A stretch of DNA of 64,000 nucleotides from an uncultured Candidatus Binatia bacterium (GTDB lineage Bacteria; Desulfobacterota; Binatia; Bin18), in contig CBDEVZ010000008.1 of assembly GCA_965243735.1 (NCBI GenBank), positions 1,624,302 to 1,688,301 of the forward strand. The letters run 5' to 3'. The notes beneath the pieces were generated by a model. That model worked only from the letters and a program-made list of their open reading frames with translations, made no database searches and had not been told where the DNA came from. Every line of letters starts with the position of its first letter. Positions within the stretch are counted from its first letter, which is position 1. The position numbers and the translations under genes were made by a program. Positions 11,749 through 31,786 of this stretch are shown piece by piece.

Positions 11749-12054
11749 ATGCATATTGAACACATGGGTTTGCCTGCCGCCTCCCCAGACAGGGGAAGTC
11801 GGGAGTGGGAGGCGGGACGACAGGAACGGGCCAGGTCGCTGATAAACGGGCGGTTCCTCGCCGCGCTGCCCGTCCTCGTCCTGATGACCCTGGTGGTCAA
11901 CGGGGCGACCGTGGCGGGCACGGTACGGACATTGGACGGAACCTATCATATCCGCTCGGTGGGTGACGGCTTATACGCCATCAGCGAGGTAGAGGAGCCT
12001 TCGCTCAACTGCGGGGTCGAGGAGCCCCATGCTGAGACGGATCACCAGCATTGA
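11749..12054 (+). CDS. Small (~101 aa) protein with hydrophobic segment and C-terminal ...LVVNG.TV.GTVR...IRSVG.GLY.ISEV.E.PLNCGVE.PH.ETDHQH; propeptide-like partner of the downstream metzincin
   Basis: ORF 11647..12054, trimmed to ATG 11749 because the listed 11647 start overlaps palindrome M2. Paralog of ORF 22959..23579. Its TGA stop overlaps the TTG start of the next gene (ATTGA). The NCGVEEP motif resembles a metzincin cysteine switch. Confidence 0.5.
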   Translation: MHIEHMGLPAASPDRGSREWEAGRQERARSLINGRFLAALPVLVLMTLVVNGATVAGTVRTLDGTYHIRSVGDGLYAISEVEEPSLNCGVEEPHAETDHQH

Positions 12055-15000
12055 CGACATCGCCGGCCTCCTGGACTCTCTCCCGACACCTCATACGCCT
12101 GCTGCTCGTGGTGCTCGTGCTCCTGCCCTGCTTGCCAGGGGGGCTCGTCCACGCGCAGTCGGTGATTGATGTCGCCGTCTTCTATACGACCGCCGCCAAA
12201 GACGATGAGGGCGGGACCGATCAGATCAAGACCAAGATCGACGAGATGGTTGCAGCGACCAACCTCGCCTACGCAGACAGTGGCGCGAACCAGACCATCA
12301 AATTGGTGCATGTAGGAGAAGTAGCATACACCGCGTCGGACAGGCTGAGTACAGATCGCAGTCGTCTCGAGAATCCGTCGGACGGCCATATGGACGAAGT
12401 CCACGCCACTCGTGACCGAGTCTGGGCGGACATCGTCATACTGCTCCGCCGTCCGGGCGACGTAGGGGGGGTGGCGTCCCTGATGCACACGCTATCGACG
12501 GACCATGCCGCCGAAGCCTTTGCCGTTTCTACCGTCCACGCCGGCAATTTCATGCATGAACTGGGCCACATCATGGGGCTTGCCCATGACCGGTATGAAG
12601 CCTGCTCGCACGATACAAGCAATCCGCAGTGTCCCACGCTGGTGACACCCTACGCGTATGGCTATGTGAACCAGGAGGCGTTTGAGTCGGGAGCGTCATC
12701 ATCAAAACGGTGGCGCACGATCATGTCATACTCTAATCAGTGTGACGATGCCGGGGTTTCCTGTTCCCCGAGCTTGCTCCGCTTCTCCAATCCAAATAAG
12801 ACCTACCGGGGCGATCCCATGGGCGCGGCCGGTACCCAGTTCACGAACGATCTGGACGGGCCGGTCGATGCGGCGCGCACCCTTAACGACACCCGCCGGA
12901 CCGTGGCGAACTTTCGGCAGGGGCGAGCCGTGCAGGTGAGCTTTGGGTCCGCGACCTACGCGGCGACCGAAGGGGGGCGGGCGCTCGTGGCGGTGAAGCT
13001 GAACACTGCGCCGGGCCGGGAGTTGGTCATTCCGCTCACGGCGCGGAGCACGGACGGGGCGTGGTCCGGCGACTATAGCCTGCCGACGAGCGTGACCTTC
13101 AGCTCCACCGCTGTCAGAAAGACCTTCATCTTCGAGGTCACCGACGACGCCATCGACGAGCGCGCCGAGACCGTCGAGCTGGGCTTCGGGCTGCCGCTGC
13201 CCGGCGGCGTCACCGTGGGCAGTCAGGACAGTGCGACAGTGACCCTGCGGGACAACGATCCCGCGACAACCGCCGCCCCGCACATCAGCACGGTCGCCAT
13301 CACCTCGGACCCTGGGCCGGGCGGCGTCTACTCCGTCGGCGATCAGATCGAGGTGACGGTCGTCTTCACCAAGCCTGTGACCGTGATCGGGACACCCGTG
13401 CTCGCGCTGACGGTCGGCACGGATACGCGCCAGGTGCTGTGTCGGGACGCGGCGAGCGAGACCCTGACGTGTGCCGACAGCGTTCCGCTGGGCGCCAGTG
13501 ACGCCGACGGGGTGAGCGTCGCGGCAAACAGCCTGAGACGGGCCGGGGCGACGATCCGGGACGCCGACAACCAGAACGCCACCCTGACCCATGCCGCCGT
13601 AGCCGCTGACAGCGGCCACGCCGTGGACGCGGTGAAGCCGGTGTTGCAAACCGCGACCGTGGATGGCGGGACAGTAAAATTGACGTATAACGAAGCGCTG
13701 GACGAGACCTCAGTTCCCACAGCGGACGCTTTTACGGTGAGCGTCGATGGGACGACCCGGCCGATTGACAGCATACAGATATCCGGGCAGGTCGTCACGC
13801 TGAGACTGGTCTCCTGGATACGTGCCGGCCGACTCGTGCGGCTGAGATACCGTCTCCACGGCCGCGACTTCATTCAGGACGTGCCCGGTAACCTCGCCCT
13901 GGCTTTTTCCAACCAGACGGTCCAGAACCTGACCCCGGAGCCGGTGTACGACGCGGACGCGGACGGGCTGATTGAAATCACGACCCTGGCCCAGTTGGAT
14001 GCGATCCGGCACGATCTGGACGGTGATGGCACGCCGACGGACACCGGGGCAGCAGCCTATGCCACAGCGTTTCCCGATGAGATACGGGTCGTCTGCGACA
14101 CCAGTAGCGAGGTCTGCGAGGGGTATGAGCTGACGGCCGACCTGGACTTCGACACCGACGAGGACGGGCAGGTCGATGCGGAAGACACCGCCTACTGGAA
14201 CGACGGGAAGGGCTGGCAACCCATCGGCACGAGTGCTGACGCGTTCCATGCGATGTTTGAGGGCAACGGCCACACCATCCGCCATCTCTTTGTTGATCGG
14301 GACACTTCCTACACGGGACTGTTCGGTCAGACAGGCTATCACTGCGATATCCGTGGTGTCGGGCTGATCGATGTCGAAGTGACGGGGAACAACTACGTCG
14401 GAGGACTGGTCGGAGACAATGGTGGCCTGATTCACGCCAGCTACGCGACCGGGCGGGTGACGGGGAACAGCGACATCGGGGGGCTGGTCGGGAGAAATGC
14501 TGGCGGCGGGATCACGACCAGTTATGCGACTGGGCGGGTGACGGGCGTGTCGCGGGTGGGGGGGCTGGTCGGAGACAATGGCAGTAGCTTTGGCTTTGGC
14601 GCGATCACGGCCAGCTACGCGACCGGACGGGTGCCGGGCCAGGACCGGGTGGGGGGGCTGGTCGGGAGCAACGGTGGCACGATCACGGCCAGCTACGCGA
14701 CCGGGCGAGTGACAGGCCGCCGGGTGCGGGTGGGGGGGCTGGTTGGATACAATGTTGGTGGCACGATCACCACCAGCTACTGGGACACGGCCACCTCGGG
14801 CCGGTCGAGCGGGTCTCTTGGGACGGGCCAGACCACCGCCCAGTTGCAGACGCCTACCGGCTATAGCGGGATTTATGCGGACTGGAACGTGGACCTGGAC
14901 GGCGATGGTACGGACGACGACCCGTGGCACTTCGGCTCAGGGAGCCAGTATCCGGCGCTGCGGGTAGACTTTGACGGGGATGAGACGGCGAGCTGGCAGG

Positions 15001-18000
15001 AGTTCGGCTATCAGCTCCGCGCCGGTTCGACCCTGACGACGATGGCCGAGACGGGGCCCATGGAGCTGAGCTGGACGGCGGCGGACGTGAGTGATTGGAC
15101 CCCCGCGCCGGACGTGACCTACGCCGTCTACCGCAACACCGGCTCGACACCCGTCGCGCAAGACCTCACCGCGCGCGAGTATGCCGACCCCGCTGTGATC
15201 CGTGGCACCACCTACGCCTACCAGGTGGCTGCGGTGGTGGATGGGGGGGAAGCCGCCCGCAGTGGGCTCGTAGAGGCGACCGCGCCCAACCAGCCGCCGA
15301 TGTTCGATGACGTGACCGGCACGGCCCGCACCATCGCCGAGAACACGCCGGCGAACCGGCCCATCGGGGAGCGGGTGACGGCGACGGACCCGGACGGCGA
15401 CCAACTGACCTACTACCTGGAAGGCACGGACGCGGACTTCTTTTCCATCACTGGAAGGACCGGCCAGCTACGGACCAAGGCCGCGCTGGACTACGAGACC
15501 CAGGACACCTACGCAGTCACCGTGGCGGTCCGGGACAGCAAGGACATCAACGACACGGCCGACATGGCGATGGATGATGAGATCGATGTGACCATCACCG
15601 TTGCCGATGTGAACGAGGCGCCGGTGTTCGATGCGAGTCTCCCCACCACCTACCGTGTGGCCGAGAATACGCCACGGGGCCAGCGTATCGGGGTCTTCTC
15701 CGCTATGGACCCGGACACCTTGACCCCGGACTATGCCGACCTGACCTACAGTCTGAGCGGCACCGACGCCGCAGTGTTCTTCCTTGACCCCATCACCGGG
15801 GAGTTACAGACCCGCGAACCCCTGGACTACGAGAGCCGGCACACCTATCAGGTCGCCGTGGCGGTTCGCGACGGCAAGGATGCCGACGGCGTTGAAGCGC
15901 TGACGGAGACGGATGCCGAACTTGCGGTGACGATCACTGTCCTGAACGTGGATGAAGCGGGCATGGTCGCGCTGTCGTCAAGCCTGCTGCAGGAGAAACG
16001 GGCGCTGACGGCCACACTGAGCGACGTGGACGGGACGCTGAGCGCCATCACGTGGCAGTGGGCGCGGTCTCCCGACCAGACCACCTGGACCGACATCCCC
16101 GGGGCGATGTCCAGCGGGGCGCTGACGGCGACCTACACGCCGGACGCGACCGACGTGGGGCAATACCTGCGGGCGAGGGCGATGTACACCGACGGCCACA
16201 GCATGGGGAAGACCGCCCAGGCGGTGACGGGCACCACAGTGCAGGCCGCCCCGCAGGTACGGTTGGTGCTGTCGCCGGATGCGTCGATCACGGAGAGCGG
16301 CACGGGGAACACCGTCACCGTGACCGCCGAACTGACGCCGGCGGCTGAGGACGAGACGGCGGTGAAGCTGAGCGAGATGCCGGAGCACTACACCTTGAGC
16401 GGCACCACCCTGACCATCCCGCTGGGCGCCACGCACAGCAACGCCGTGACACTGACGGCTACGGACGACGCCGTGGACGGGCCGGAGGAGACCAAGGCAA
16501 TCCCTGTCACGGGGATACTCACCAAGAACCTCCTGGTGACCGCTCCGGATGCGGTCACGCTTCGCATCACGGATGACGATACCCGCGGAGTGATGGTCAC
16601 CCCGACCGAGCTGACCGTAGAAGAAGGTTCGTCCGAGGACTACGAGGTGATCCTGACTTCCGAGCCGACGGAACCGGTGACCGTGACGGTGACCGCGCCG
16701 ACGAACCCGGACGTGACCGTGAACCGGACCGAGCTGGTCTTTCAGCCGGGGCGCTGGAATACGGCGCAGCCAGTAACAGTGGCGGCGGCGCAGGACCCCA
16801 CCGCCGATGACGAGCCGGCGACGATCAGCCACACGGTGAGCGGCGGGGACTACACCGGAGAAAGCGTGGAACCGGTGGCCGTGACGATCGAAGACGACGA
16901 GGGGCCATCCACGGCGGTCGTGCTGAGCGTGCAGCCACCGACGGTGGGAGAAGGAAGCAGCCGGACGGTGACGGTGAGGGGCAGCCTCAATCGGGCGCTG
17001 CGCCAGCAGGCGACCCCGGTGAGTGTGGAGGTCGAGGCGGGCACGGCCACACAGGGCACGGACTTCACCGCCATATCGCCCTTCACCCTGACAATTCCGG
17101 CGAACACGAAGAGCGGGACGGCAACCTTCACCCTGACGCCGGTAGACGACAGCCTGGATGAGCCGGATGAGACCGTGACGGTGAGCGGCAGTACCACAGT
17201 TGGGCTGGATGTGACCGATGCGTCGCTGACCATCACCGACACCGACGCGCCGCCCACGGTGACACTGATCCTGACCCCGGACGCAATCGGCGAAGACGGT
17301 GGGCAGAGCACGGTCACGGCGACGCTCAGCCATCCGTCGAGTGCGGCGACGGAGGTCGCAGTGGCGGTCACGGCAGACGCGGACGTCGTGCGACAAAGCG
17401 GCACCACCCTGACGATTGCAGCCGGAGAGACAGCCAGCACCGGGACCGTGACGCTGACGGCGGTGGACAACTCCGTCGACGCGCAGGACACGCTGGTGAC
17501 GGTGAGCGGGCAGGCAGACAACGCGCTGGCTGTGAACGGGCCGGCTGCGGCCACGTTGACCATCACCGATGACGATCCGCCGGAGGTGGAGGGCGAGAGC
17601 GCTCCACAGTACGTGGAGCACGACACCGCGCCGGTGGCCACGTACACGGCCACGAACCCGGCCGGCGGCAGGTTGACGTGGTCTCGGTCCGGGCCGGATG
17701 CGAGCGAGTTCCGTGTCGACCAGAACGGCGTGCTGCGCTTCGTTGCGCCACCCGACTTTGAGGCGAGGCGGAGCAATGTCTACCACGTGACGGTCGCCGC
17801 CTCCGACGGAACCCGCACCGGCTCCCTCGCTGTCACCGTCACTGTGCAGGATGCCCCCGGTACGGTCCGCCTGTCTCCGGCGCAGCCCCGGATCGTCTCG
17901 CCGCTGCGCGCGACGCTGCGCGACCCGGACGGGGTGGAGACGGTCGCCGAGTGGTGCTGGGAGCGGTCCCGCTACCACGACTTTCAGACCGATAGCAGCC

Positions 18001-19100
18001 TCCTTGCCTGCACCGTCACCGACAGCGCCGCCGCCACCTATCAACCGGAGGACGCCGACCTCGGCTACTATCTGCGGGCCACCGCGACCTATACCGACGG
18101 CCACGGCGCGACCAACAAAACGGCGGCGGCGGCCACGACCACGACCGTCTCGGTTCGGCCGCCCCCGTCTCAGGGCGGTGGCGGGAGCAGCGGCGGCAGC
18201 GGCAGTAGCAGCGGCGGTGGCGGTCAGCCGCAGGAAGCCCCCATCGGATATTTGGAGAACCCGGGGACTCATTCCTTTCAGAGTGGGATCGGCATCATTT
18301 CGGGTTGGGTGTGTGCGGCGGAGACCGTGGAGATAGAGCTTGCCGGCGTGCGGCAGCCGGCGGCGTACGGCACGGCGCGGCTGGACACCCACGGCGTGTG
18401 CGGAGATGCGGACAACGGGTTTGGGTTGCTGCTCAACTGGAACCTGCTGGGCGACGGCGCACATGAGGTCGCGGCCTACGTGGATGGTATTGAGTTGGGC
18501 CGGGCGACGGTGACGGTGACGACGCTGGGGGAGGAGTTCGCGCGGGGGGTGAGCGGGGAGTGCACCGTCGAAGACTTTCCGAGTGCGGGCGAGGGGGTGC
18601 GGTTGGTGTGGCAGGAGGCGCAGCAGAACTTCGTGCTGGCCGAGGGCAGGGCGCCTACGGGCGTGCACCGGTCGGGAACCGCCAACGTAGGCTATCTGGA
18701 GAACCCGAGTCCGCACTCGTTTCAGAGTGGCATTGGGGTCATCTCGGGTTGGGTGTGCGAGGCCGAGGAAGTCGTCATCACGCTCGGAGACCTGGCCCCA
18801 CAGGCAGCGGGCTATGGCACGGAGCGGCTGGACACGCGAGATGTCTGCGGAGACACGGACAACGGCTTCGGGTTGTTGTTCAACTGGAATTTGCTCGGTG
18901 ATGGGGAACATGTGGTCGTGGCGGTCGTGGACGACGTGGAACTGGGCCGGACCACCGTGCGGGTGACGACCCTGGGCGAGGAGTTCGTACGGGGAGCCGA
19001 GGGGGAATGTACCGTCCCGGACTTCCCCAGTCCGGGGGAGCGTGTGACGCTCACCTGGCAGCAGAACAGTCAGAATTTTGTCGTCACGGGAGTGGAGTGA
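12051..19100 (+). CDS. Giant secreted metzincin: signal peptide, reprolysin-like Zn-metalloprotease domain (HELGHIMGLAHD), Calx-beta, Ig-like (SwmB-like), GLUG-like Gly-rich repeats (GGLVG...SYATGRV), FN3, cadherin repeats, Calx-beta array, Gly/Ser linker, tandem novel CTD (A ~18247-18650, B ~18690-19097); no PPC
   Basis: 2349-aa ORF. HExxHxxGxxHD zinc site. Repeated GGLVG motifs. Cadherin-like DPDGD...LDYE. The CTD tandem is the same as in the other giants. Start listed as TTG 12051; GTG ~12108 is an alternative. Confidence 0.85.
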   Translation: MTTSPASWTLSRHLIRLLLVVLVLLPCLPGGLVHAQSVIDVAVFYTTAAKDDEGGTDQIKTKIDEMVAATNLAYADSGANQTIKLVHVGEVAYTASDRLSTDRSRLENPSDGHMDEVHATRDRVWADIVILLRRPGDVGGVASLMHTLSTDHAAEAFAVSTVHAGNFMHELGHIMGLAHDRYEACSHDTSNPQCPTLVTPYAYGYVNQEAFESGASSSKRWRTIMSYSNQCDDAGVSCSPSLLRFSNPNKTYRGDPMGAAGTQFTNDLDGPVDAARTLNDTRRTVANFRQGRAVQVSFGSATYAATEGGRALVAVKLNTAPGRELVIPLTARSTDGAWSGDYSLPTSVTFSSTAVRKTFIFEVTDDAIDERAETVELGFGLPLPGGVTVGSQDSATVTLRDNDPATTAAPHISTVAITSDPGPGGVYSVGDQIEVTVVFTKPVTVIGTPVLALTVGTDTRQVLCRDAASETLTCADSVPLGASDADGVSVAANSLRRAGATIRDADNQNATLTHAAVAADSGHAVDAVKPVLQTATVDGGTVKLTYNEALDETSVPTADAFTVSVDGTTRPIDSIQISGQVVTLRLVSWIRAGRLVRLRYRLHGRDFIQDVPGNLALAFSNQTVQNLTPEPVYDADADGLIEITTLAQLDAIRHDLDGDGTPTDTGAAAYATAFPDEIRVVCDTSSEVCEGYELTADLDFDTDEDGQVDAEDTAYWNDGKGWQPIGTSADAFHAMFEGNGHTIRHLFVDRDTSYTGLFGQTGYHCDIRGVGLIDVEVTGNNYVGGLVGDNGGLIHASYATGRVTGNSDIGGLVGRNAGGGITTSYATGRVTGVSRVGGLVGDNGSSFGFGAITASYATGRVPGQDRVGGLVGSNGGTITASYATGRVTGRRVRVGGLVGYNVGGTITTSYWDTATSGRSSGSLGTGQTTAQLQTPTGYSGIYADWNVDLDGDGTDDDPWHFGSGSQYPALRVDFDGDETASWQEFGYQLRAGSTLTTMAETGPMELSWTAADVSDWTPAPDVTYAVYRNTGSTPVAQDLTAREYADPAVIRGTTYAYQVAAVVDGGEAARSGLVEATAPNQPPMFDDVTGTARTIAENTPANRPIGERVTATDPDGDQLTYYLEGTDADFFSITGRTGQLRTKAALDYETQDTYAVTVAVRDSKDINDTADMAMDDEIDVTITVADVNEAPVFDASLPTTYRVAENTPRGQRIGVFSAMDPDTLTPDYADLTYSLSGTDAAVFFLDPITGELQTREPLDYESRHTYQVAVAVRDGKDADGVEALTETDAELAVTITVLNVDEAGMVALSSSLLQEKRALTATLSDVDGTLSAITWQWARSPDQTTWTDIPGAMSSGALTATYTPDATDVGQYLRARAMYTDGHSMGKTAQAVTGTTVQAAPQVRLVLSPDASITESGTGNTVTVTAELTPAAEDETAVKLSEMPEHYTLSGTTLTIPLGATHSNAVTLTATDDAVDGPEETKAIPVTGILTKNLLVTAPDAVTLRITDDDTRGVMVTPTELTVEEGSSEDYEVILTSEPTEPVTVTVTAPTNPDVTVNRTELVFQPGRWNTAQPVTVAAAQDPTADDEPATISHTVSGGDYTGESVEPVAVTIEDDEGPSTAVVLSVQPPTVGEGSSRTVTVRGSLNRALRQQATPVSVEVEAGTATQGTDFTAISPFTLTIPANTKSGTATFTLTPVDDSLDEPDETVTVSGSTTVGLDVTDASLTITDTDAPPTVTLILTPDAIGEDGGQSTVTATLSHPSSAATEVAVAVTADADVVRQSGTTLTIAAGETASTGTVTLTAVDNSVDAQDTLVTVSGQADNALAVNGPAAATLTITDDDPPEVEGESAPQYVEHDTAPVATYTATNPAGGRLTWSRSGPDASEFRVDQNGVLRFVAPPDFEARRSNVYHVTVAASDGTRTGSLAVTVTVQDAPGTVRLSPAQPRIVSPLRATLRDPDGVETVAEWCWERSRYHDFQTDSSLLACTVTDSAAATYQPEDADLGYYLRATATYTDGHGATNKTAAAATTTTVSVRPPPSQGGGGSSGGSGSSSGGGGQPQEAPIGYLENPGTHSFQSGIGIISGWVCAAETVEIELAGVRQPAAYGTARLDTHGVCGDADNGFGLLLNWNLLGDGAHEVAAYVDGIELGRATVTVTTLGEEFARGVSGECTVEDFPSAGEGVRLVWQEAQQNFVLAEGRAPTGVHRSGTANVGYLENPSPHSFQSGIGVISGWVCEAEEVVITLGDLAPQAAGYGTERLDTRDVCGDTDNGFGLLFNWNLLGDGEHVVVAVVDDVELGRTTVRVTTLGEEFVRGAEGECTVPDFPSPGERVTLTWQQNSQNFVVTGVE

Positions 19101-22958: not shown

Positions 22959-23579
22959 ATGGTACGAGTCTGGTGGTTCGTTTCATGTGTTGCTACCCTG
23001 ATCCGGCCTGTCCGGCGCATGTGTCTGGCCGTCACGGTGGCGGTGCTGACTACGTTGGTCCCGCCCCCGTCCGAGGCCCAGTCCCCGGTTCTCTTTACCT
23101 CGGTCAATGAAACGCCGCCGCCCGGCCCGCTCGGCACCGAGACATTGCGCAGCCGGCTGGTGACCATGGACCTCGGGCAAGTCCAGCACGCCCGGGCTGC
23201 CGCCGCCACGGCGTCCGGCCAGCCTCCGCAGACCAGAGACACGTCCGGGCGTACAGACAAATCCAGCGCGGCGCCCGCCCCAGGTACGCTCCTGACCCTT
23301 AATCTGTTTGACGACGTGGTGGTCACGGGCGTGGTGGAGCGAACCGCGCCGACGTTTTCGGGGGGCTATTCCGTGGCGGGCCACCTGGTCGAAGAGCCGC
23401 TCGGCACCCTGACCCTGGTGGTCAACGGGGAGACGGTGGTGGGCACGGTACGGATGTTGGGGGAGACCTATCAGATCCGCTCGGTGGGAGGCGGATTGTA
23501 TACCATCAGCGAGGTGAAGGAGCACCCGCTCAACTGTGGGGTTGAGGGGCCCCATTCTGAGACGGACCATCAGCATTGA
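22959..23579 (+). CDS. Small secreted propeptide-like protein (paralog of 11749..12054) with C-terminal ...PLNCGVEGPHSETDHQH; translationally coupled to the downstream metzincin
   Basis: Signal peptide (MCLAVTVAVLTTLVPPPSEA). ~55-aa C-terminal block conserved with the first small ORF. Its stop TGA 23577-79 overlaps the TTG start 23576 of the next gene. Confidence 0.55.
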   Translation: MVRVWWFVSCVATLIRPVRRMCLAVTVAVLTTLVPPPSEAQSPVLFTSVNETPPPGPLGTETLRSRLVTMDLGQVQHARAAAATASGQPPQTRDTSGRTDKSSAAPAPGTLLTLNLFDDVVVTGVVERTAPTFSGGYSVAGHLVEEPLGTLTLVVNGETVVGTVRMLGETYQIRSVGGGLYTISEVKEHPLNCGVEGPHSETDHQH

Positions 23580-26500
23580 TACCCCTGCCGTCCTGGAGTG
23601 CTGCTCCACACCTGAAGCGTCTGCTGCTGGCGGCGTTGCTGCTCCTGCCCCTGCTGTCTGGGGGGATGGTGCATGCGCAGTCGGTGATTGATGTCGCCGT
23701 CTTCTACACGACTGCGGCCAAGGACGCCCAGGGTGGGACCGAGCAGATTGAGACCAAGATCGATGAACTCGTCGTAGCGGCCAACATGGCCTACACAGAC
23801 AGCGACGTGAACCAGACCATTAAGCTGGTCGCGGCGGAGGAGGTGGCATACCCGGAGACAGGGAGCATACGGATAGATGTTGAGCGCCTCCGGGACCCGT
23901 CCGACGGCTATCTGGACGAAGTCCACACCATCCGTGACCGGGTCCATGCGGACATCGTCATACTGCTTCGTGCGCAGTGGGACGGAGAGATAAGTGGAGT
24001 CGCATACACAATGGGCACCGAGTCGACGACTCATGCCCCCAATGCCTTCGGCGTCTCCATTGTCGACGCGTCCACATTCGCCCATGAATTGGGCCACATC
24101 ATGGGGCTTCTCCACGACCGGTATGAAGCCTGCCAGCACAACACGGCCACTCCGCAGTGTCGCAGTTCGGTGGTGGCGCCCTATGCGTATGGCTATGTGA
24201 ACCAGGCGGCGTTCGAGTCGGGCGCAGCGACATCGAAACGCTGGCGTACGATCATGGCGACCAACAAGCAGTGCGCTGACAATAGTCCCAGCTTCAATTG
24301 TGACAGAGTGCTCTACTTCTCCAATCCGGACAATTCCTATCCCGATGCTGATGGCGATCCCATGGGCGTGTCCGGCACCCAAGACACCACCGATATAGAC
24401 GGGCCGGCCGACGCGGCGCAGGCGCTCGACGACACCCGCGACACGGTGGCGGACTTCCGGGAGGGTCGGGCCGTGCAGGTGTCGTTTGCGGCGGGGGCCT
24501 ACGCCGTGACCGAAGGCGGGTCGGTGACCGTCACCGTGCAACTGGACGTCGCGCCGGGCCGCACGCTCGATATGCCCATTGCGCTCACGGCGACGAGCCC
24601 GGACGGCGCTTGGCCCGGCGACTATAGCCTCCCGGCGAGCGTGACGTTTAGCGCGAGCCAGACCACGCAGACCTTCACCTTCCGGGCCACCCAGGACACC
24701 CGTCAGGAGGACGAAGAGACGGTCATCCTGGGCTTTGGCACCCCGCTGCCCGCCGGGGTGTCGGTCGGCAGTCAGGCCACGGCCACGGTCACGTTGACTG
24801 ATAACGACACGGTGGCCGCCGCGCCGAGCGTCAGCACGGTGGAGATCGTCTCGGACCCAGGAGCGGCCTACGCCGCCGGCGAAGAGATTGTGGTGGCGGT
24901 GGTCTTCACCAAACCCATCAGCGTGACCGGCGTCCCCAGCATCGAGTTGACGGTCGGGACGAATACGCGGACGGCATTATGTCAAGACGTTGCGAGCGAG
25001 GTGCTGACGTGCACCTACACCGTGGTGGCCGACGAAAGTGACACCGACGGGGTGAGCGTCGTTGCGAACAGCCTGGCGCTCAACGGCGGGACGATCCAGG
25101 ACGAGGAAACCACGCCCCAGGACGCCGCACTCACCCATGATGCCGTTGCGGCGGACAGCGCCCACACCGTAGATGGCGACACGCCGGACCTGGAGAGCGC
25201 GACGGTGGACGAAGACACCGTGACGCTGACGTATGATGAAGCGCTGGACGAGACCTCGGTCCCGAGGGCGAACGCTTTCACGGTGACGGCCGGTAGTACG
25301 ACCGTGTTGACTACCTCCGTTGAGGTGTCCGGGGAGGTGGTGACGTTGGACCTGGTTTCCAGGGTCGCCCATGATGACAGTGTGACGCTGACCTACTCCC
25401 CCTCGACCGGAACCCCCTCGCTGCGGGATGCAGCGGGCAACGCAGCGGCCACCCTCTCCAGCTACGCTCTGACGAACAACACCCCGCAGCCGGTCTATGA
25501 CACGGACGACGACAGGCTGATTGAAATTGCGACCCTGGCCCAGCTCAATGCCGTACGGCACGACCTGGACGGCGATGGCACCCCGACGACCACCGGGGCG
25601 GCGGACTATGCTGCGGCGTTTCCCGACGCGACGCGGGTGGTGTGCGGGGTCACCAGCGGGGGGTGTGCGGGGTATGAGCTGACGGTGGATCTGGATTTTG
25701 ACACCAGCGGCGACGGCCAGATTGACGCGGACGACGAGTACTGGAACAGCGGGGCCGGCTGGGTGCCCATTGGGACGGCATCCGACCGGTTCCGCACAAC
25801 CTTTGAGGGGAATGGCCGCGCCATCAGGCATCTGTTTATCAAGCGGAGCAGTTCCGACAACGTCGGGTTGTTTGGCTACACCGGCTTGTCCAGTGTCATC
25901 CGCCATGCTCGGCTGCGTGATGTCGCGGTGCAGGGGAAACGTGGCGTCGGTGGGCTGGCTGGGACGAACCAGGGAAGTGTTACCGAGAACTCTGCAACCG
26001 GACGGGTGGAAGGAGGAAGCGGCAGTGTCGGGGGCCTGGTTGGCATAAACTTCGGTGAGATTCATGCCAGCTACGCCACGGTCCGGGTCGTTGGCGGCTT
26101 CCATGCCGGCGGGCTCGTCGGCCAGGTCTCCGGCGACATATTCGCCAGCTATGCCACCGGGCGCGTATCGGGAACGAGTGGGGTCGGGGGGTTGGGCGGT
26201 CGCATGGCGACAGACGGTCAGGGCAACATCCAGGCCAGCTACGCCACGGGGTCGGTGTCAGGCAATAACCACGTCGGGGGGCTGATCGGATCTTTCGCCG
26301 CCGGCACGATACACGCCAGCTACGCCACGGGGCGCGTGGCAGGTAATGGCAGTGCTGTCGGGGGCTTGGTCGGAGAGAGCCCCGACGATCCGACAATCAC
26401 AGCCAGCTACTGGGACACACGCACCTCGGGCCGGACGAACAGCGCCGGGGGTGACGGCCAGACCACCACGGCCTTGCAGACGCCCACCGGCTATACCACC

Positions 26501-29500
26501 GGCAGCATCTATGCCGACTGGAACGTGGACCTGGACGGCGATACTACGACCGACGACCCCTGGGACTTCGGCACGGCCAGTCAGTACCCGGCGCTCCGCG
26601 TGGACTTTGACGGTGATGATACGGCAACCTGGGAGGAGTTCGGCCAGCAACTCCGCGAAATCCCGACCCTGACCCCCGACACCTCGACGGTGGGTCAGGT
26701 AGACTTGAGCTGGACGGCGGTCACGAACTCTGCGGGCTCGGCGGCTGTGACCTACACCGTCATGCGCGGCGACACTCCCATCGCCGAGGACCTCAGCACG
26801 ACGACCTACACCGATACCGATGTGACATCGGGGAGCGAATACACCTACCAGGTGATCGCCCTGGTCGACGGCGGGGAGGCTACGCGCAGCGCCCGGCTGG
26901 CGGTGACCGCGACCGCGAACCAGAAACCGGCGTTCGATGAAGGCGACAGCGCCATGCGCAGCGCGGACGAGAACACGGCCTCGGGTGTCAATATCGGGGA
27001 CCCGGTGGCAGCCACCGACATCGACGACACCAGTCTGATCTACACGCTGGGCGGGACGGACGCGACCTCTTTCGACATCGTCTCGACCACCGGACAGTTG
27101 CAGACCAAGACGGCCCTGAACTACGAGGCCAAGCGTCGCTACACGGTCAGCATCTCGGTCCGGGACGGCAAGAACAACGACGGCGAGGCCGACATGACCA
27201 CGGACGACACCATCACCGTGACCATCGATGTCGGCAACCTGGACGAAGCGGGCACGGTGACGCTCTCGGGGACTCCGGCACAGGCAGGGCGGCAACTGAC
27301 CGCGACGCTGAGCGACCTCGACGGCGGTCTGAGTGGCATCTCCTGGCAGTGGGAGCGGTCCAGCGACCAGAGCAACTGGACCGACATCACTGGGGAGACA
27401 TCCACTCAATACACGCCAGTAGCGGGCGACATGGGGGATTATCTCCGGGCCACGGCACGCTATACCGATGGCCAGGGGTCCGGGAAGAGCGCGGCGGCGG
27501 TGACGGCCCAGGTTCAGGCCGCGCCGGTGGTGGAACTGAGACTGTCGCCGCCTCGGATTGATGAGGACGGGGGGACGAGCACAGGGGTGAGCAGGGTCAC
27601 GGCGCATCTGCTGAACAATCGGACCTCACTCGCAAAGACGACCGTGCGCGTAACAGCCACGGCCCTCGCGCCGGCTCAGGCGGGGGATTTTACCCTCAGC
27701 GGCAATCAGCTGACGATCGCGGCAGGGGCATTGGCGAGCACTGAAACGGTAACGATTACCGCTAGAAACAACAATGTGGACGCCCCGGACAAGACGGTCA
27801 CGGTGAGTGGGCTGGCGACCAACTCTGATGGCGTCACCGGCCCGGCCTCGGTGGACCTGACGATCACGGACGACGACCCAGCCCCGAGCGTAGAACTGGT
27901 GCTGTCGCCCGCCCAGATCAGCGAGAACAACCAAGTGAGCACGGTGTCGGCGCGGCTGAGCCATCCGTCGAGCGCGGATACGACCGTGACCGTCTCGTCG
28001 CAGGCCGTGAGCCCGGCAGTGGCGGGCGACTTCATGCTGAGCACAAACACCACGTTGACCATCACGGCAGGGGCAACGGCAAGCAGCGGCACCGCTGTCA
28101 CGCTGACCTCGGTGGATAATTCCACCGACGCCCCGAACAAGCAGGTGACGGTAAGCGGGACGGCGACGAATACGCACGGTATCGCCGGAAACCCGGATAA
28201 TGCCACGCTCTTGATCACCGACGACGAGGGGGCGCCGAGGGTGACACTGACGTTGTCGGAGACGCAGATCGATGAGAGCGGTGCGGATAATAGCGCCACG
28301 CTGGCGGTGACCCTGAGCCATGCGTCGAGTGCGGCGACGACGGTGACGGTCTCGACAGACCCGGCGGAGGCCGTCACACTCAGCCCAAACCCATTGACGA
28401 TCTCGGCAGGGAACACCGAGGGCACAGTGACGCTGACGGCAGTGGACAACGAGATTGATGGGCCGGAGACCAAGCGGGTAACTATCTCGGCGGAGGCGGA
28501 GAACGACCAGGGGGTCACGGACCCGGCCAATAAGACGCTGACGATTGCAGACGATGACAATCCGCCGGTGGTGACGCTGGAGCTGTCGGCTACTCCGATT
28601 GATGAAAACGGTGGGCAGAGCACGCTGACGGCGAGCTTGGACCGGGCATCGAGCCAGCAGATCGTGGTGACGGTGGCGACAGCGACGGAATATGCCTTGA
28701 GTACGCCCCGCACCCTGACCATCCCGGCGGGGAAGACAGCGAGCGAGGGAAACACGGTCACGCTGACGGCCAAGGACAACAACATCGACGCGGCGGACGC
28801 GGAGATCACGGTGGAGGGGACGGCCAACCTGAGTGGGCTGACAGTGACGGGGGTGGAGCTGACCATCACGGATGACGATACGCGCGGGGTGACGGTCAGC
28901 GAGAGCACGCTGTCGATCAAGGAAGGGCAGACCGACACCTATACGGTGGTGTTGGACTCCCAGCCGACGGCGACAGTAACGGTGACGCTGGCCGTCACGC
29001 AGACTGATGACGCCGTGGGCACCAATCAGGCGAGTCTGACGTTCGCGCCGGGGAACTGGAACACGGCCCAGACGGTCACGGTGCGGGCGGCCGACGATAC
29101 GGTGGAGAACATCCCTCCCAAGACAGCGACGATCACGCACACGGTGACGGGCGGCGACTACGGAGAGAACAACGTCCGGGCGGCCTCTGTATCGGTGACC
29201 GTGACCGACGACGAGAGTGCGTCCACGGCGGTAACCCTGCGGGTGAACCCAGAGGCGGTGACCGAGGGGAGCAGCAACCGGACAGTGACCGTGACCGGCG
29301 AGTTGGATGGGGCACCGCGCGGTACTGACACCACGGTGACTATCTCGGTCACATCCGGGAGCGGGGACGAGGCAGCCGTGGAGGGCACCGATTTTGACGA
29401 GGTGGCGGACTTCACGCTGACGATCAAGGCGGGTCAGCCGAGCGGGATGGCAACCTTCACCCTGACGACGGAGAACGACACTATCGATGAGCCGGACGAA

Positions 29501-31786
29501 ACGGTGACGGTAGAGGGGACGGTGACGGGGCTGACCGTGAACCCGACGACGCTGACCATCACGGACGATGACCCGCCACCGACAGTGACGCTGGAGGTGG
29601 CGGACAATTCGATCACCGAGAGTGGCGCGGATAACAACACGACAGTGAGGGCGACGCTCAGTCATCCGTCAAGCGAGGTGACGACGGTGGAGGTGACGGC
29701 TACGGCCGTGCCGCCGGCGGTGGACGGTGACTTCACCCTGAGCGGAGCGAGTTTGACCATCCCGGCCAGGCAGACAGAGAGCAGCGGGAGCGCGACGCTG
29801 ACGGCGCAGGATAACGCGGAGGATGAGGTGGACAAGCGGGTGCGCGTGACCGCGCGGGCGACCAACACCCAAGGGGTCAGGTCGACGACTGTGGCAGCGG
29901 TCACCGTGACGATCACCGATGACGACCCACCTAAGGTGGAGGGCGAGATCGCTCCAACGTACGTGGAGGGCGGGACGGGGCCGGTAGCGACGTACACGGC
30001 GAGTAACCCGGCCAATGTCAGGCTGACGTGGTCGCTGGATGGCACTGACAAAGACACCTTTACCATCCCGAACGGGGTGCTGCGCTTCAAGCAGTCCCCG
30101 GACTATGAGGATCCGAACAACTCGGACAAAGAATATGCGGTCACCGTGCAGGCCTCCGACGGGACGGTCACCGGCGAATTGCCGGTCCTCGTCACCGTTG
30201 AGGATGCATTGGGCACAGTCCGTTTGTCCGCGTCACAGCCCAGGGTTGGGTCCTCGCTGACGGCGACAGTGAGTGACCCGGACGGCGTGGATACGGCCAC
30301 CACCGAGTGGTGCTGGGAGCGCTCCCTCCTCCCGAGCCCCCAGGCGGATACCACTGAGGCCGACTGCACCCCGACCACGGCGGCGACTTATACGCCGGTA
30401 GACGACGACCTCGGCCACTATCTGCGGGCCACGGTGACCTATACCGACAACCAGGAGACACCCAAAAGAGAGGCCGTAGAGGCGGTGACGACGAACACGG
30501 TCTTGGCGCGAGGCGGCGGCGGTAGGGATGGTGGAGGCGGGGGCGGCGGAGGTGGAGGTGGGGGCGGCGGAGGTGGGGGCGGTAGAGGCGGCGGCAGTGC
30601 CCCTGCCTGTACGCAGGACGATGTGCACGGCAACAGTCCGACCCAGGCCACTGACATTGCGCTGTCTGCTGTGACTGCCGGAGCGATCTGTCCCGCTGGC
30701 GACGTGGATTATTTTGCCGTGACCGCTCCCGGCCGGGGCCTCCTCTTTGTGGAGACCTTCGGTGGGGCGAGTCCTCGCGGCACGCTCTGGCAGGACGGCG
30801 CGGTCTTGGCGTCCGGTCCCCGCCCGGATACTCGGCTGGGCGCCCGCGTGGAGGCCGGCCCAGTCGTCGTAGCGCTGCAAGGGCAGGGGGGAGCGACTGG
30901 GGCATATGAGGTGATCATCACCTTCGTGCAGGGCTTTCTGGAGAACCCTGGCTCCGCCTCGTTCCAAAGTGGGGTGGGGGTGCTGTCGGGCTGGGTGTGT
31001 GAAGCGGACATGGCGGAGATCGAGTTGAACGGGGTGCCGCAGGAGGCGGCGTATGGAACGGATCGGCTGGACACAGCCGGCGTCTGTGGCGACGTGGACA
31101 ATGGGTTTGGCCTCTTGTTCAACTGGAACCTGTTAGGCGACGGCGTGCATGCCATCGTTGCTCTGGTCGATGGGGTGGAGTTAGGCCGGGTGACGGTGAC
31201 GGTGACCACGCTGGGCGCGGAGTTTCTGCGGGGCGTGGCAGGGGAGTGTGTGGTGGCCGACTTCCCGAGTGCGGGCGAAAGTGTGCGACTGGTATGGCAG
31301 GAGGCACAGCAGAATTTCGTGCTGGCCGAGGGCGCTGCGCCGACAGGGGCTTCCCGCTCCGGGACGCCCGGCGTCGGGGTTCTGGAGAACCCGAGTCCAC
31401 GCTCGTTTCAGAGTGGGATCGGCGTGCTGTCGGGCTGGGTATGCGAGGCGGAGGAAGTCGTTATTACGATTGGCGACCTGGCCCCACAAGTAGCCGGCTA
31501 CGGCACCGAGCGCCTGGACACCCAAGGCGTGTGTGGGGACACGGCCAACGGCTTCGGCTTGCTGTTCAACTGGAACCTGCTGGGCGACGGAGCGCACGAA
31601 GTGGTAGCCAGCGTAGATGGGGTCGAGTTGGGCCGGACCACGGTACGGGTGACGACCTTGGGCGAGGAGTTCGTGCGGGGCGCTGTGGGGGAGTGTGTGG
31701 TGGCGGACTTCCCGCATCCGGGCGCGACGGTAACGCTCACCTGGCAGGAGTCCAGCCAGAACTTTGTGATTACCCAAGTGGAGTGA
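23576..31786 (+). CDS. Giant secreted metzincin paralog (2736 aa): reprolysin-like protease (HELGHIMGLLHD), Calx-beta, Ig-like, GLUG-like repeats, FN3, cadherin, ~10 Calx-beta/Ig-like modules, long poly-Gly linker, PPC, tandem novel CTD (A 30931-31350, B ~31375-31783)
   Basis: Same domain order as 12051..19100. DVDYFAV PPC motif. CTD-B is ~95% identical in nucleotide sequence to the CTD-B of gene 38292..41519. Confidence 0.85.
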   Translation: MIPLPSWSAAPHLKRLLLAALLLLPLLSGGMVHAQSVIDVAVFYTTAAKDAQGGTEQIETKIDELVVAANMAYTDSDVNQTIKLVAAEEVAYPETGSIRIDVERLRDPSDGYLDEVHTIRDRVHADIVILLRAQWDGEISGVAYTMGTESTTHAPNAFGVSIVDASTFAHELGHIMGLLHDRYEACQHNTATPQCRSSVVAPYAYGYVNQAAFESGAATSKRWRTIMATNKQCADNSPSFNCDRVLYFSNPDNSYPDADGDPMGVSGTQDTTDIDGPADAAQALDDTRDTVADFREGRAVQVSFAAGAYAVTEGGSVTVTVQLDVAPGRTLDMPIALTATSPDGAWPGDYSLPASVTFSASQTTQTFTFRATQDTRQEDEETVILGFGTPLPAGVSVGSQATATVTLTDNDTVAAAPSVSTVEIVSDPGAAYAAGEEIVVAVVFTKPISVTGVPSIELTVGTNTRTALCQDVASEVLTCTYTVVADESDTDGVSVVANSLALNGGTIQDEETTPQDAALTHDAVAADSAHTVDGDTPDLESATVDEDTVTLTYDEALDETSVPRANAFTVTAGSTTVLTTSVEVSGEVVTLDLVSRVAHDDSVTLTYSPSTGTPSLRDAAGNAAATLSSYALTNNTPQPVYDTDDDRLIEIATLAQLNAVRHDLDGDGTPTTTGAADYAAAFPDATRVVCGVTSGGCAGYELTVDLDFDTSGDGQIDADDEYWNSGAGWVPIGTASDRFRTTFEGNGRAIRHLFIKRSSSDNVGLFGYTGLSSVIRHARLRDVAVQGKRGVGGLAGTNQGSVTENSATGRVEGGSGSVGGLVGINFGEIHASYATVRVVGGFHAGGLVGQVSGDIFASYATGRVSGTSGVGGLGGRMATDGQGNIQASYATGSVSGNNHVGGLIGSFAAGTIHASYATGRVAGNGSAVGGLVGESPDDPTITASYWDTRTSGRTNSAGGDGQTTTALQTPTGYTTGSIYADWNVDLDGDTTTDDPWDFGTASQYPALRVDFDGDDTATWEEFGQQLREIPTLTPDTSTVGQVDLSWTAVTNSAGSAAVTYTVMRGDTPIAEDLSTTTYTDTDVTSGSEYTYQVIALVDGGEATRSARLAVTATANQKPAFDEGDSAMRSADENTASGVNIGDPVAATDIDDTSLIYTLGGTDATSFDIVSTTGQLQTKTALNYEAKRRYTVSISVRDGKNNDGEADMTTDDTITVTIDVGNLDEAGTVTLSGTPAQAGRQLTATLSDLDGGLSGISWQWERSSDQSNWTDITGETSTQYTPVAGDMGDYLRATARYTDGQGSGKSAAAVTAQVQAAPVVELRLSPPRIDEDGGTSTGVSRVTAHLLNNRTSLAKTTVRVTATALAPAQAGDFTLSGNQLTIAAGALASTETVTITARNNNVDAPDKTVTVSGLATNSDGVTGPASVDLTITDDDPAPSVELVLSPAQISENNQVSTVSARLSHPSSADTTVTVSSQAVSPAVAGDFMLSTNTTLTITAGATASSGTAVTLTSVDNSTDAPNKQVTVSGTATNTHGIAGNPDNATLLITDDEGAPRVTLTLSETQIDESGADNSATLAVTLSHASSAATTVTVSTDPAEAVTLSPNPLTISAGNTEGTVTLTAVDNEIDGPETKRVTISAEAENDQGVTDPANKTLTIADDDNPPVVTLELSATPIDENGGQSTLTASLDRASSQQIVVTVATATEYALSTPRTLTIPAGKTASEGNTVTLTAKDNNIDAADAEITVEGTANLSGLTVTGVELTITDDDTRGVTVSESTLSIKEGQTDTYTVVLDSQPTATVTVTLAVTQTDDAVGTNQASLTFAPGNWNTAQTVTVRAADDTVENIPPKTATITHTVTGGDYGENNVRAASVSVTVTDDESASTAVTLRVNPEAVTEGSSNRTVTVTGELDGAPRGTDTTVTISVTSGSGDEAAVEGTDFDEVADFTLTIKAGQPSGMATFTLTTENDTIDEPDETVTVEGTVTGLTVNPTTLTITDDDPPPTVTLEVADNSITESGADNNTTVRATLSHPSSEVTTVEVTATAVPPAVDGDFTLSGASLTIPARQTESSGSATLTAQDNAEDEVDKRVRVTARATNTQGVRSTTVAAVTVTITDDDPPKVEGEIAPTYVEGGTGPVATYTASNPANVRLTWSLDGTDKDTFTIPNGVLRFKQSPDYEDPNNSDKEYAVTVQASDGTVTGELPVLVTVEDALGTVRLSASQPRVGSSLTATVSDPDGVDTATTEWCWERSLLPSPQADTTEADCTPTTAATYTPVDDDLGHYLRATVTYTDNQETPKREAVEAVTTNTVLARGGGGRDGGGGGGGGGGGGGGGGGGRGGGSAPACTQDDVHGNSPTQATDIALSAVTAGAICPAGDVDYFAVTAPGRGLLFVETFGGASPRGTLWQDGAVLASGPRPDTRLGARVEAGPVVVALQGQGGATGAYEVIITFVQGFLENPGSASFQSGVGVLSGWVCEADMAEIELNGVPQEAAYGTDRLDTAGVCGDVDNGFGLLFNWNLLGDGVHAIVALVDGVELGRVTVTVTTLGAEFLRGVAGECVVADFPSAGESVRLVWQEAQQNFVLAEGAAPTGASRSGTPGVGVLENPSPRSFQSGIGVLSGWVCEAEEVVITIGDLAPQVAGYGTERLDTQGVCGDTANGFGLLFNWNLLGDGAHEVVASVDGVELGRTTVRVTTLGEEFVRGAVGECVVADFPHPGATVTLTWQESSQNFVITQVE

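What the first reader, a model, noticed from the sequence alone, without database searches (positions are those of the whole stretch)
11749..12054. Small propeptide-like ORFs with a cysteine-switch-like NCGVE motif, translationally coupled upstream of each giant metzincin
ORFs 11749..12054 and 22959..23579 share a conserved ~55-aa C-terminal block (LVVNG.TV.GTVR...IRSVG.GLY.ISEV.E.PLNCGVE.PH.ETDHQH). Each has a hydrophobic N-terminal or signal segment. Each ends with a stop that overlaps the TTG start of a reprolysin-like metzincin giant (ATTGA at 12051-12054 and 23576-23579). Metzincin zymogens are normally held latent by a cis pro-domain cysteine switch (PRCGxPD) ligating the catalytic zinc. 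These giants have a signal peptide directly followed by the catalytic domain and no pro-domain. The upstream ORFs may therefore encode a trans-acting pro-domain, inhibitor or chaperone. Alternatively a -1/+2 recoding event could fuse them.
Basis: partly seen in the sequence, partly recalled or inferred. Interest (0 to 1): 0.7.

Follow-up and report, generated by a model that had tools for sequence, protein, structure and literature searches.

The report
Split-off protease pro-domain genes (BamI/CpaB-like)
The two small genes encode stand-alone versions of the pro-domain that normally keeps ADAM-type zinc proteases inactive; each sits just upstream of the giant secreted protease it probably guards, an arrangement already known from BamI/Mep72 in Pseudomonas and CpaB/CpaA in Acinetobacter.

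Summary
ORFs 11749..12054 and 22959..23579 share a 55-aa C-terminal block ending in ...PLNCGVE.PH.ETDHQH. Each stop overlaps the TTG start (ATTGA) of a giant whose own signal peptide runs straight into a reprolysin-like catalytic domain.

- About a third of the listed close homologues carry weak precomputed hits to Pfam PF27177, BamI_lipocalin. BamI is the Mep72 inhibitor of Pseudomonas.
- The module forms a large family (2558 clusters). It occurs as a separate upstream gene or fused in cis ahead of the catalytic domain, for example ...WECGVPD... in L039.

The Cys is invariant in 32 of 32 close homologues. Most distant members have Asp or Glu near that position instead, as expected for a zinc ligand. 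Contact between the Cys and the zinc could not be tested.

Recoding is unlikely. Copy 1 is a 5'-truncated "mini" form that has conserved orthologues.

Verdict: a new member of a known kind, of moderate interest.

The parts
22959..23579 (+). Small ORF copy 2 (206 aa): full-length BamI/CpaB-like, pro-domain-like protein
   Evidence: ORF and translation. It has at least 325 homologues, mostly stand-alone and about 193 aa. A protein identical to it (P0001) is on record from an NCBI source. AlphaFold model pLDDT is 79.9, with the core above 90. Fold matches are CpaB and the ADAM17 pro-domain.
22959..23084 (+). N-terminal hydrophobic segment of copy 2: signal peptide or membrane anchor, ending ..SEA|QS
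   Evidence: The hydrophobic maximum is at aa 21-35. Homologues have a typical M..R + hydrophobic + VEAQ signal. Whether it is cleaved or acts as an anchor was not determined.
23142..23516 (+). Beta-rich core of copy 2 (aa 62-186): eight strands plus one helix, carrying the invariant NLF and TFSGGY motifs
23517..23576 (+). C-terminal tail of copy 2 (aa 187-206, KEHPLNCGVEGPHSETDHQH); Cys193 codon at 23535-23537
   Evidence: Coil in the model, pLDDT about 66-71. C193 and H204 are invariant and H199 and E201 nearly so in 32 homologues. The Cys sits at a fixed offset, +6 after the last strand, in 203 of 228 Cys-type modules.
23576..23579 (+). TTGA stop/start overlap: TGA of copy 2 and TTG of giant 2
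   Evidence: Binatia homologues keep a 4-nt overlap (TTGA or GTGA) or a 1-nt overlap (TGATG).
23576..31786 (+). Giant 2 (2736 aa): signal peptide, then the metzincin catalytic domain (about aa 36-300, nt 23681-24475; HELGHIMGLLH at 24083-24115), then repeat domains and a shared C-terminal domain
11749..12054 (+). Small ORF copy 1 (101 aa): 5'-truncated 'mini' form. It has a novel 46-aa N-terminus with a hydrophobic stretch (FLAALPVLVLMTLVV), then the last three strands and the tail. Cys88 codon at 12010-12012
   Evidence: A protein identical to it (P0322) is on record from an NCBI source, and there are full-length orthologues at 86% and 83% identity (P0323, P0324).
12051..12054 (+). TTGA stop/start overlap: TGA of copy 1 and TTG of giant 1
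12051..19100 (+). Giant 1 (2349 aa): signal peptide, then the metzincin catalytic domain (about aa 37-291; HELGHIMGLAH at 12555-12587), then SWM, Glug and cadherin repeats and a shared C-terminal domain

Best explanation
Each small ORF encodes a pro-domain of the ADAM/adamalysin type that has become a separate gene. It belongs with BamI (the partner of Mep72 in Pseudomonas) and CpaB (the partner of CpaA in Acinetobacter).

Shown:
- The small gene lies immediately upstream of a giant metzincin, with an overlapping stop and start.
- Both products carry their own export signal.
- The small protein has the CpaB / ADAM17-pro-domain fold plus a flexible 20-aa C-terminal tail.
- The same module occurs as a cis pro-domain in relatives.
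- The tail Cys is invariant in close homologues, and most distant members have Asp or Glu near that position instead.

Inferred:
- After separate Sec export, the beta-core docks on the catalytic domain. It may assist folding or stability, as CpaB does.
- The tail lies in the active-site cleft, with Cys193 (copy 2) or Cys88 (copy 1) ligating the catalytic zinc. The neighbouring His, Glu and Asp residues may also contribute. This would be a cysteine switch acting in trans.
- This keeps the giant protease latent in the periplasm until it is exported or the partner is removed.
- The stop/start overlap (translational coupling) would favour co-synthesis of the two proteins.

Copy 1 is a truncated paralogue that keeps only the last three strands and the tail. 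It may act as a minimal tethered inhibitor peptide.
For: Gene arrangement and lack of a cis pro-domain.

Family: at least 325 close homologues, almost all stand-alone and about 190-210 aa. A profile search finds 2558 clusters at E <= 1e-3.

BamI link: PF27177 BamI_lipocalin appears as a weak precomputed hit on about a third of the listed close homologues. The best NCBIfam match of the giants' catalytic domain is Mep72 (E 1.5e-19), and metallo_CpaA is second (2e-4). BamI is co-transcribed with mep72, rescues Mep72 toxicity in E. coli, and binds Mep72 in a pulldown (PMC4334185).

Cis forms: L038 and L039 (..SECGVAEW.. and ..WECGVPDS.., no internal signal peptide), plus 26 fused representatives.

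Neighbourhood: in 35 of 44 related loci a script found a metzincin zinc motif downstream or fused; two more show a truncated metzincin start.

Cys: 32/32 in close homologues. Of 318 classifiable modules, 228 have a Cys in the tail, 81 have an acidic residue there and no Cys, and 9 have neither. Cys->Asp or Cys->Glu swaps occur between close relatives: PLDCEVLEP vs PLVDDVLEP and EPMECDV vs RPLVEEP.

The part always kept in independently truncated forms is the last strands plus the tail.
Against: In the model of a fused homologue, most of the linker that begins just after the Cys has pLDDT below 50, so the model gives no support for a position at the zinc.

There is no sequence-level match to CpaB, to any other PDB chain, or to Pfam Pep_M12B_propep.

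The window's own copy 2 has no recorded PF27177 hit (P0001).

About 28% of classifiable modules lack the Cys.

For CpaB, one review reports that CpaA activity is not blocked by CpaB binding (PMC9952577). As I recall the abstract of the structure paper, which I could not read here, the tail is dispensable for CpaA expression and secretion. A chaperone role without real inhibition is therefore possible.

No T2SS genes lie in the window.
Confidence: 0.75

Rival explanations
1. The small protein is purely a folding and secretion chaperone, with no latency function. Like CpaB, it would be needed for stability and export of the giant protease. The conserved tail Cys would serve another purpose, such as metal delivery or a disulfide, and would not inhibit.
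For: CpaB is the best structural match. CpaB is required for CpaA stability and secretion, and one review states that CpaA activity is not blocked by CpaB (PMC9952577, PMC7542363).
Against: The module is a cis pro-domain in many relatives and has the fold of the ADAM17 pro-domain, which carries a cysteine switch (established knowledge). Replacement of the Cys by Asp or Glu fits a zinc ligand and does not fit a disulfide. BamI counteracts Mep72 toxicity (PMC4334185). Truncated forms keep the tail and lose most of the core that a chaperone would need.
Confidence: 0.15
2. The two ORFs are read as one protein through programmed -1 ribosomal frameshifting or another recoding event at the TTGA junction. 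This would give a conventional cis pro-domain zymogen.
For: The 4-nt overlap is conserved in both copies, and the giant's frame is -1 relative to the small ORF. Fused single-ORF relatives exist.
Against: - The giant's frame has a stop only 15 nt upstream of the TTG in both copies, so a shift would have to occur within the last five codons, where there is no slippery X XXY YYZ heptamer.
- A fusion would bury a complete signal peptide in the middle of the protein. Natural fused relatives have no such segment.
- In homologues the junction varies: the giant's start lies from 46 nt upstream of the small ORF's stop to 76 nt downstream, in different frames, using ATG, GTG or TTG.
Confidence: 0.03
3. 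Copy 1 (11749..12054) is a decaying gene remnant with no protein function of its own. Its 3' end would be retained only because it carries the translation-initiation context for the giant's TTG start.
For: It has lost about 450 nt of 5' coding sequence, including the invariant NLF and TFSGGY core motifs. With three strands it cannot form the full domain.
Against: The ORF is intact and has full-length orthologues at 83-86% identity, including the novel N-terminus. dN/dS against copy 2 is about 0.29 over 55 codons (low power). Other independent mini forms keep a signal peptide fused in frame to the same C-terminal piece (P0325, P0327, P0326).
Confidence: 0.25

Closest known systems
BamI (PA2782) / Mep72 (PA2783) of Pseudomonas aeruginosa (PMC4334185, PMC4222646); Pfam PF27177 BamI_lipocalin
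   Same: A small protein is encoded directly upstream of, and in an operon with, a Sec-exported metzincin that has no cis pro-domain. The small protein binds the protease and neutralises its toxicity. Homologues of the window's protein carry weak PF27177 hits. The giants' catalytic domain best matches the Mep72 model.
   Different: - In Pseudomonas the genes are 78 bp apart rather than overlapping (PMC4222646).
- Mep72 is 599 aa with carbohydrate-binding modules, not a 2300-2700-aa repeat giant.
- The sequence relationship is weak, and the window protein itself has no recorded hit.
- I could not obtain the BamI sequence, so I do not know whether BamI has a tail Cys.
CpaB / CpaA of Acinetobacter (PDB 6O38; PMC7542363)
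   Different: - There is no detectable sequence similarity.
- CpaA wraps four glycan-binding domains around CpaB, and the giants here have other domains.
- CpaB's inhibitory role is debated (PMC9952577).
- T2SS dependence is unknown here.
Cis pro-domain of ADAM/adamalysin (M12B) zymogens with the cysteine switch (for example the ADAM17 pro-domain, PDB 9o54, 8snm, 8snl)
   Different: Here the module is a separate polypeptide with its own export signal, and there is no furin-type cleavage site. There is no match to Pfam Pep_M12B_propep. Many family members use Glu or Asp instead of Cys.
AprI / Inh inhibitors of serralysins (mentioned in PMC4334185)
   Same: A small periplasmic inhibitor is encoded next to a secreted metzincin.
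   Different: From established knowledge, these have an unrelated fold and mechanism: the N-terminal residues of the inhibitor insert into the cleft, they are not pro-domain homologues, and the protease is exported by a type I system.
Pro-peptide-like trans inhibitors of other protease classes (MEROPS I9 for subtilisins, I29 for papain-like enzymes, Spi for SpeB); from my own knowledge, not tested here
   Same: The concept is the same: a free-standing homologue of a protease pro-peptide acts as inhibitor or chaperone.
   Different: They act on different catalytic classes and have different folds.

Membership tests
BamI family (Pfam PF27177 BamI_lipocalin) | Significant match to the PF27177 profile | tested here: inconclusive
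   The model is absent from the local Pfam copy. Precomputed annotation shows PF27177 on about a third of the listed close homologues, marked 'weak'. None is recorded for P0001, which is identical to copy 2.
BamI family (Pfam PF27177 BamI_lipocalin) | Encoded immediately upstream of, and co-oriented with, a secreted metzincin lacking a cis pro-domain | tested here: met
   The same holds in related loci.
BamI family (Pfam PF27177 BamI_lipocalin) | The partner protease is Mep72-like | tested here: inconclusive
   NF052434 Mep72 is the best NCBIfam hit: E 1.5e-19, 70 bits, over model positions 1-239. This is far below the 645-bit equivalog cut-off, so the relationship is at domain level only.
BamI family (Pfam PF27177 BamI_lipocalin) | Binds the protease and relieves its toxicity | not testable with these tools
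   This needs co-expression and pulldown experiments, as in PMC4334185.
CpaB-type T2SS chaperone of an adamalysin-like protease | CpaB fold | tested here: met
CpaB-type T2SS chaperone of an adamalysin-like protease | Sequence similarity to CpaB | tested here: not met
   No PDB chain was hit at E <= 10 with the single sequence or with either of two family profiles, apart from two chance hits to unrelated proteins.
CpaB-type T2SS chaperone of an adamalysin-like protease | N-terminal membrane anchor | tested here: inconclusive
   Hydrophobic N-terminal segments are present in both copies. Whether they are cleavable signal peptides or anchors was not resolved.
CpaB-type T2SS chaperone of an adamalysin-like protease | C-terminal tail occupying the protease active site | not testable with these tools
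   A conserved 20-aa coil tail exists.
CpaB-type T2SS chaperone of an adamalysin-like protease | Partner secreted by a type II secretion system | not tested
   No Gsp genes were found among the window ORFs scanned. The rest of the genome was not examined.
M12B (ADAM/reprolysin) pro-domain with cysteine switch | Match to Pfam Pep_M12B_propep (PF01562) | tested here: not met
   No Pfam hit at E <= 1 for either small ORF.
M12B (ADAM/reprolysin) pro-domain with cysteine switch | Pro-domain fold | tested here: met
M12B (ADAM/reprolysin) pro-domain with cysteine switch | Conserved Cys in a short motif between the pro-domain core and the catalytic domain | tested here: met
   C193 is 32/32 in close homologues. 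The Cys is at offset +6 in 203 of 228 Cys-type modules. It is not universal in the family: 81 modules have an acidic residue in the tail and no Cys.
M12B (ADAM/reprolysin) pro-domain with cysteine switch | Covalently N-terminal to the catalytic domain (cis) | tested here: not met
   In the window these are separate genes with separate signal peptides. The feature is met in relatives L038, L039, P0194, P0250 and others.
M12B (ADAM/reprolysin) pro-domain with cysteine switch | Cys thiol ligates the catalytic zinc | not testable with these tools
   No coordinates or complex model were available. Most of the linker that begins just after the Cys has pLDDT below 50 in the fused-homologue model.
Programmed -1 ribosomal frameshift site | Slippery heptamer in the overlap, no independent start for the downstream ORF, and a conserved junction | tested here: not met
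   The overlap window is 15 nt and has no X XXY YYZ heptamer. The downstream ORF has its own start and signal peptide. The junction is variable in homologues.

The most novel reading that the evidence does not exclude
The bacterial BamI and CpaB 'chaperone/inhibitor' proteins may be ADAM-type metzincin pro-domains that have repeatedly been split from, or fused to, their catalytic domains. In the Binatia/Acidobacteriota branch they would keep a working cysteine switch that acts in trans, with a Glu/Asp switch in sister clades. The recurrent 'mini' forms (an export signal, the last three strands and the tail, like copy 1) would be minimal natural latency peptides for giant surface proteases.
Probability: 0.4. 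Interest if true: 0.55.

Novelty: new member of a known kind. Interest (0 to 1): 0.4.

Why it matters
This finding assigns a probable function to two genes for which the protein database gives no name, and to a large uncharacterised family: 2558 clusters at 50% identity, mainly in Binatia and Acidobacteriota.

It ties two separately described systems, BamI/Mep72 and CpaB/CpaA, to the eukaryotic ADAM pro-domain through fold and through natural cis/trans intermediates.

It also suggests a simple experiment. Mutating the tail Cys (or Glu/Asp) would test whether metzincin latency switches can work between separate polypeptides.

In practical terms, the tail peptides could be leads for selective inhibitors of adamalysin-like bacterial proteases.

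It does not reveal a new kind of biology.

Tried and rejected
- **Complex prediction.** I modelled a natural fused homologue instead (A4). Coordinates are not exposed, and the Cys-bearing linker has low confidence, so the Cys-zinc distance could not be measured.
- **PDB sequence searches.** Searches with the single sequence and with two family profiles found nothing relevant. The catalytic domain also found nothing by sequence.
- **Profile libraries.** Pfam and NCBIfam gave no hit for the small ORFs. PF27177 is not in the local Pfam copy.
- **BamI sequence.** I could not obtain the PA2782 sequence to check its tail. No supplements are held for the paper, and no names are attached to the cluster members.
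- **CpaB papers.** The structure and interaction papers (PMC6737226, PMC5712607) are not held.
- **P0001 look-up.** There is no record of an encoding contig.
- **Rejected readings.** Recoding is rejected. An assembly frameshift artefact is rejected because hundreds of stand-alone homologues exist in independent assemblies and the giants have their own signal peptides. A lipid-binding lipocalin or FABP role is rejected because those fold matches are weak (Foldseek probability 0.57 or less) compared with CpaB and ADAM17.

Full report
**1. Observation**

The window has two small + strand ORFs, 11749..12054 (101 aa) and 22959..23579 (206 aa). Their last 55 residues are 78% identical: TLVVNG.TV.GTVR...IRSVG.GLY.ISEV.E..LNCGVE.PH.ETDHQH.

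Each TGA stop overlaps a TTG (cATTGA). That TTG opens a giant ORF: 12051..19100 (2349 aa) and 23576..31786 (2736 aa).

Both giants begin with a signal-peptide-like segment (..RLLL..LLP..GG.VHA|QS). This runs directly into a metzincin catalytic domain:
- Reprolysin_4/_5/_3 match from residue ~36.
- HELGHIMGL.HD lies at aa 169-180.
- The first Calx-like repeat starts near aa 292-304.

There is therefore no cis pro-domain. The description is accurate, with one correction for copy 1. DNA homology between the copies starts only at 11885 <-> 23410. Copy 1 has lost the 5' two-thirds of the gene, including the family's invariant NLF and TFSGGY motifs, and has an unrelated 46-aa N-terminus with a hydrophobic stretch.

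**2. What the small protein is**

Copy 2 has at least 325 homologues with E <= 1e-3. The 120 listed are 60-100% identical, and nearly all are stand-alone proteins of about 190-210 aa with no name from any source.

Related loci come from Candidatus Binatia and from several Acidobacteriota lineages. The window is therefore from a Binatia-like genome.

The local Pfam and NCBIfam libraries give no hit. However, precomputed annotation puts PF27177, named BamI_lipocalin, on about a third of the listed homologues, as weak hits.

BamI (PA2782) is co-transcribed with the metzincin Mep72. It relieves Mep72 toxicity in E. coli and binds Mep72 in a pulldown (PMC4334185, PMC4222646). Consistent with this, the best NCBIfam match of the giants' catalytic domain is Mep72 (E 1.5e-19, domain-level only), and the second is Acinetobacter CpaA.

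**3. Structure**

An AlphaFold model of copy 2, built on a 34-sequence alignment, has mean pLDDT 79.9. The core (aa 62-186: eight strands and one helix) is above 90. A 20-aa C-terminal coil follows.

| Search | Match | Score |
|---|---|---|
| Foldseek, PDB | CpaB | probability 1.0 |

CpaB is the membrane-anchored chaperone of the adamalysin-like protease CpaA. [quoted passage not shown]

There is no sequence-level link to CpaB or to any other solved structure.

**4. Comparative evidence that it is a pro-domain**

A profile search of 1.84 billion representative proteins finds 2558 clusters at E <= 1e-3 and 1047 at E <= 1e-10.

Many hits are long proteins in which the module is N-terminal and HExxHxxGxxH follows 120-280 residues later. 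There are 26 clear cases among the top 150. Some proteins have tandem modules, and in a few the module lies C-terminal to the catalytic domain.

Two Ca. Multivorans loci (L038, L039) are single ORFs. They run signal peptide, module..SECGVAEW.. or ..WECGVPDS.., a 35-45-aa non-hydrophobic linker, then the catalytic domain. The L039 motif resembles the MMP switch PRCGVPD (established knowledge).

A model of one fused homologue (P0194, residues 1-484, pTM 0.79) best matches CpaA (E 1e-10). Next come zymogen ADAM17 and profragilysin, with both domains aligned.

In 35 of the 44 related loci fetched, a script found a metzincin zinc motif directly downstream of the module or fused to it. Two more loci show a truncated metzincin start.

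**5. The cysteine**

- Cys193 is invariant in 32 of 32 close homologues. H204 is also invariant, and H199 and E201 nearly so.
- Across 318 classifiable modules, 228 have a Cys in the tail; in 203 of these it sits exactly six residues after the last strand. Another 81 have no Cys but an acidic residue in the same short stretch, typically LPP.GEP[LI]. Nine have neither.
- Close relatives differ by Cys->Asp or Cys->Glu at the same place: PPLDCEVLEP vs PPLVDDVLEP, and EPMECDV vs RPLVEEP.

This pattern fits a metal ligand and parallels the Cys and Asp switches of different metzincin zymogens (established knowledge). It is still an inference. In the fused-homologue model, most of the linker that begins just after the Cys has pLDDT below 50.

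**6. Recoding alternative**

- The giant's frame carries a stop 15 nt upstream of the TTG in both copies. The remaining five codons contain no slippery heptamer.
- A fusion would bury a full signal peptide inside the protein.
- Homologues show every arrangement, from a start 46 nt upstream of the small ORF's stop to a 76-nt spacer, in different frames, with ATG, GTG or TTG starts.

Binatia relatives keep the TTGA, GTGA or TGATG overlap, which is ordinary translational coupling.

**7. Copy 1**

A protein identical to the truncated ORF (P0322) is on record from an NCBI source. It has full-length orthologues at 86% and 83% identity (P0323, P0324).

Other assemblies hold independent short forms:
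- P0325 and P0327 join a signal peptide directly to ..EEPLGTLTLVVNG.
- P0326 looks like a deletion between two PLGT repeats.

What is always retained is the last three strands plus the tail. dN/dS between copies 1 and 2 over the shared 55 codons is about 0.29, though this test has low power. Copy 1 may be a minimal tethered inhibitor, or a remnant kept for the coupling context. I give the remnant reading about 0.25.

**8. Mechanism proposed**

Shown:
- operon-like overlap of the two genes
- separate export signals
- the CpaB / ADAM-pro-domain fold with a conserved tail
- cis homologues

Inferred:
- After Sec export the core docks on the catalytic domain and stabilises it.
- The tail occupies the cleft, with the Cys (plus nearby His, Glu and Asp) at the zinc.
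- The protease is released when it is exported or when the partner is degraded.

A chaperone-only role cannot be excluded, because reports on CpaB inhibition conflict (PMC9952577 vs PMC7542363).

**9. Novelty**

The kind is known: BamI/Mep72, CpaB/CpaA and a Pfam family. This is a new, distant member in an uncultured phylum.

Three points may be new:
- the explicit bridge from BamI/CpaB to the ADAM pro-domain through natural cis and trans forms
- the trans cysteine-switch reading, with Glu/Asp variants
- the mini forms

No paper in the searchable library mentions ADAM17, prodomain and CpaB together, or PA2782 and lipocalin together.

Interest is moderate, at 0.4.

Noticed in passing
window 4250-4642, 10890-11279, 18710-19100, 31400-31786, 37780-38169, 41130-41519, 58400-58847 (3' ends of seven ORFs): Seven secreted proteins end in the same ~125-aa C-terminal domain: ..SFQSGIGVLSGWVC..GYGTERLDT..VCGDT.NGFGLLFNWNLLGDGEHEV..VRVTTLGEEFVRG..GEC.V.DFP.PGETVTLTWQ..SQNFVIT.VE*. 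Six are large or giant proteins and one is a 380-aa matrixin-like protease. The domain looks like a lineage-specific sorting or anchoring domain. It was not identified.
   Followed up: partly
window 4680-4745, 11615-11680, 22845-22900, 31810-31865: A T-rich tract followed by a near-perfect palindrome, CTGCCCAnnTGGGCAG (CTACCCATCTGGGCAG at ~11661), lies upstream of each giant-gene unit. It may be a shared promoter or operator. The small ORFs start 60-75 nt downstream of it.
   Followed up: partly
window 57705-58847 (+): A 380-aa protein has a matrixin-like (Peptidase_M10) HELGHVLGLGH domain and the shared C-terminal domain. No BamI-like gene was noted next to it.
   Followed up: no
P0185-P0190, P0198; P0225, P0263, P0303, P0309, P0316-P0320 (representative proteins): Some family members carry two to four tandem copies of the pro-domain-like module ahead of one catalytic domain. 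In others the module lies C-terminal to the HExxH domain. The meaning of this is unknown. Some cases could be gene-call read-through.
   Followed up: no
L010, L013-L017, L019-L033, L035, L041, L042, L044 (downstream genes): In most Acidobacteriota and some Binatia loci, the partner protease has an extra ~140-aa N-terminal module after its signal peptide and before the catalytic domain. The module (..ATDKAALVALYNATDG.NW..) looks like an LRR cap. HExxH lies at about residue 290-435.
   Followed up: no
L006 (ERZ25072854 contig, 6001-8330): A second, identical copy of a BamI-like gene (P0078) is followed by a 583-aa fn3/LRR protein with no HExxH, instead of a metzincin. The window's own LRR/fn3 ORF (31893..36032) has no such upstream gene.
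   Followed up: no
window 52164-53300 (+): An AAA_15/AAA_21 (AbiEii-like) ATPase gene is followed by a 205-aa ORF (53304..53921). This could be a defence or toxin-antitoxin pair. It is unrelated to the finding.
   Followed up: no
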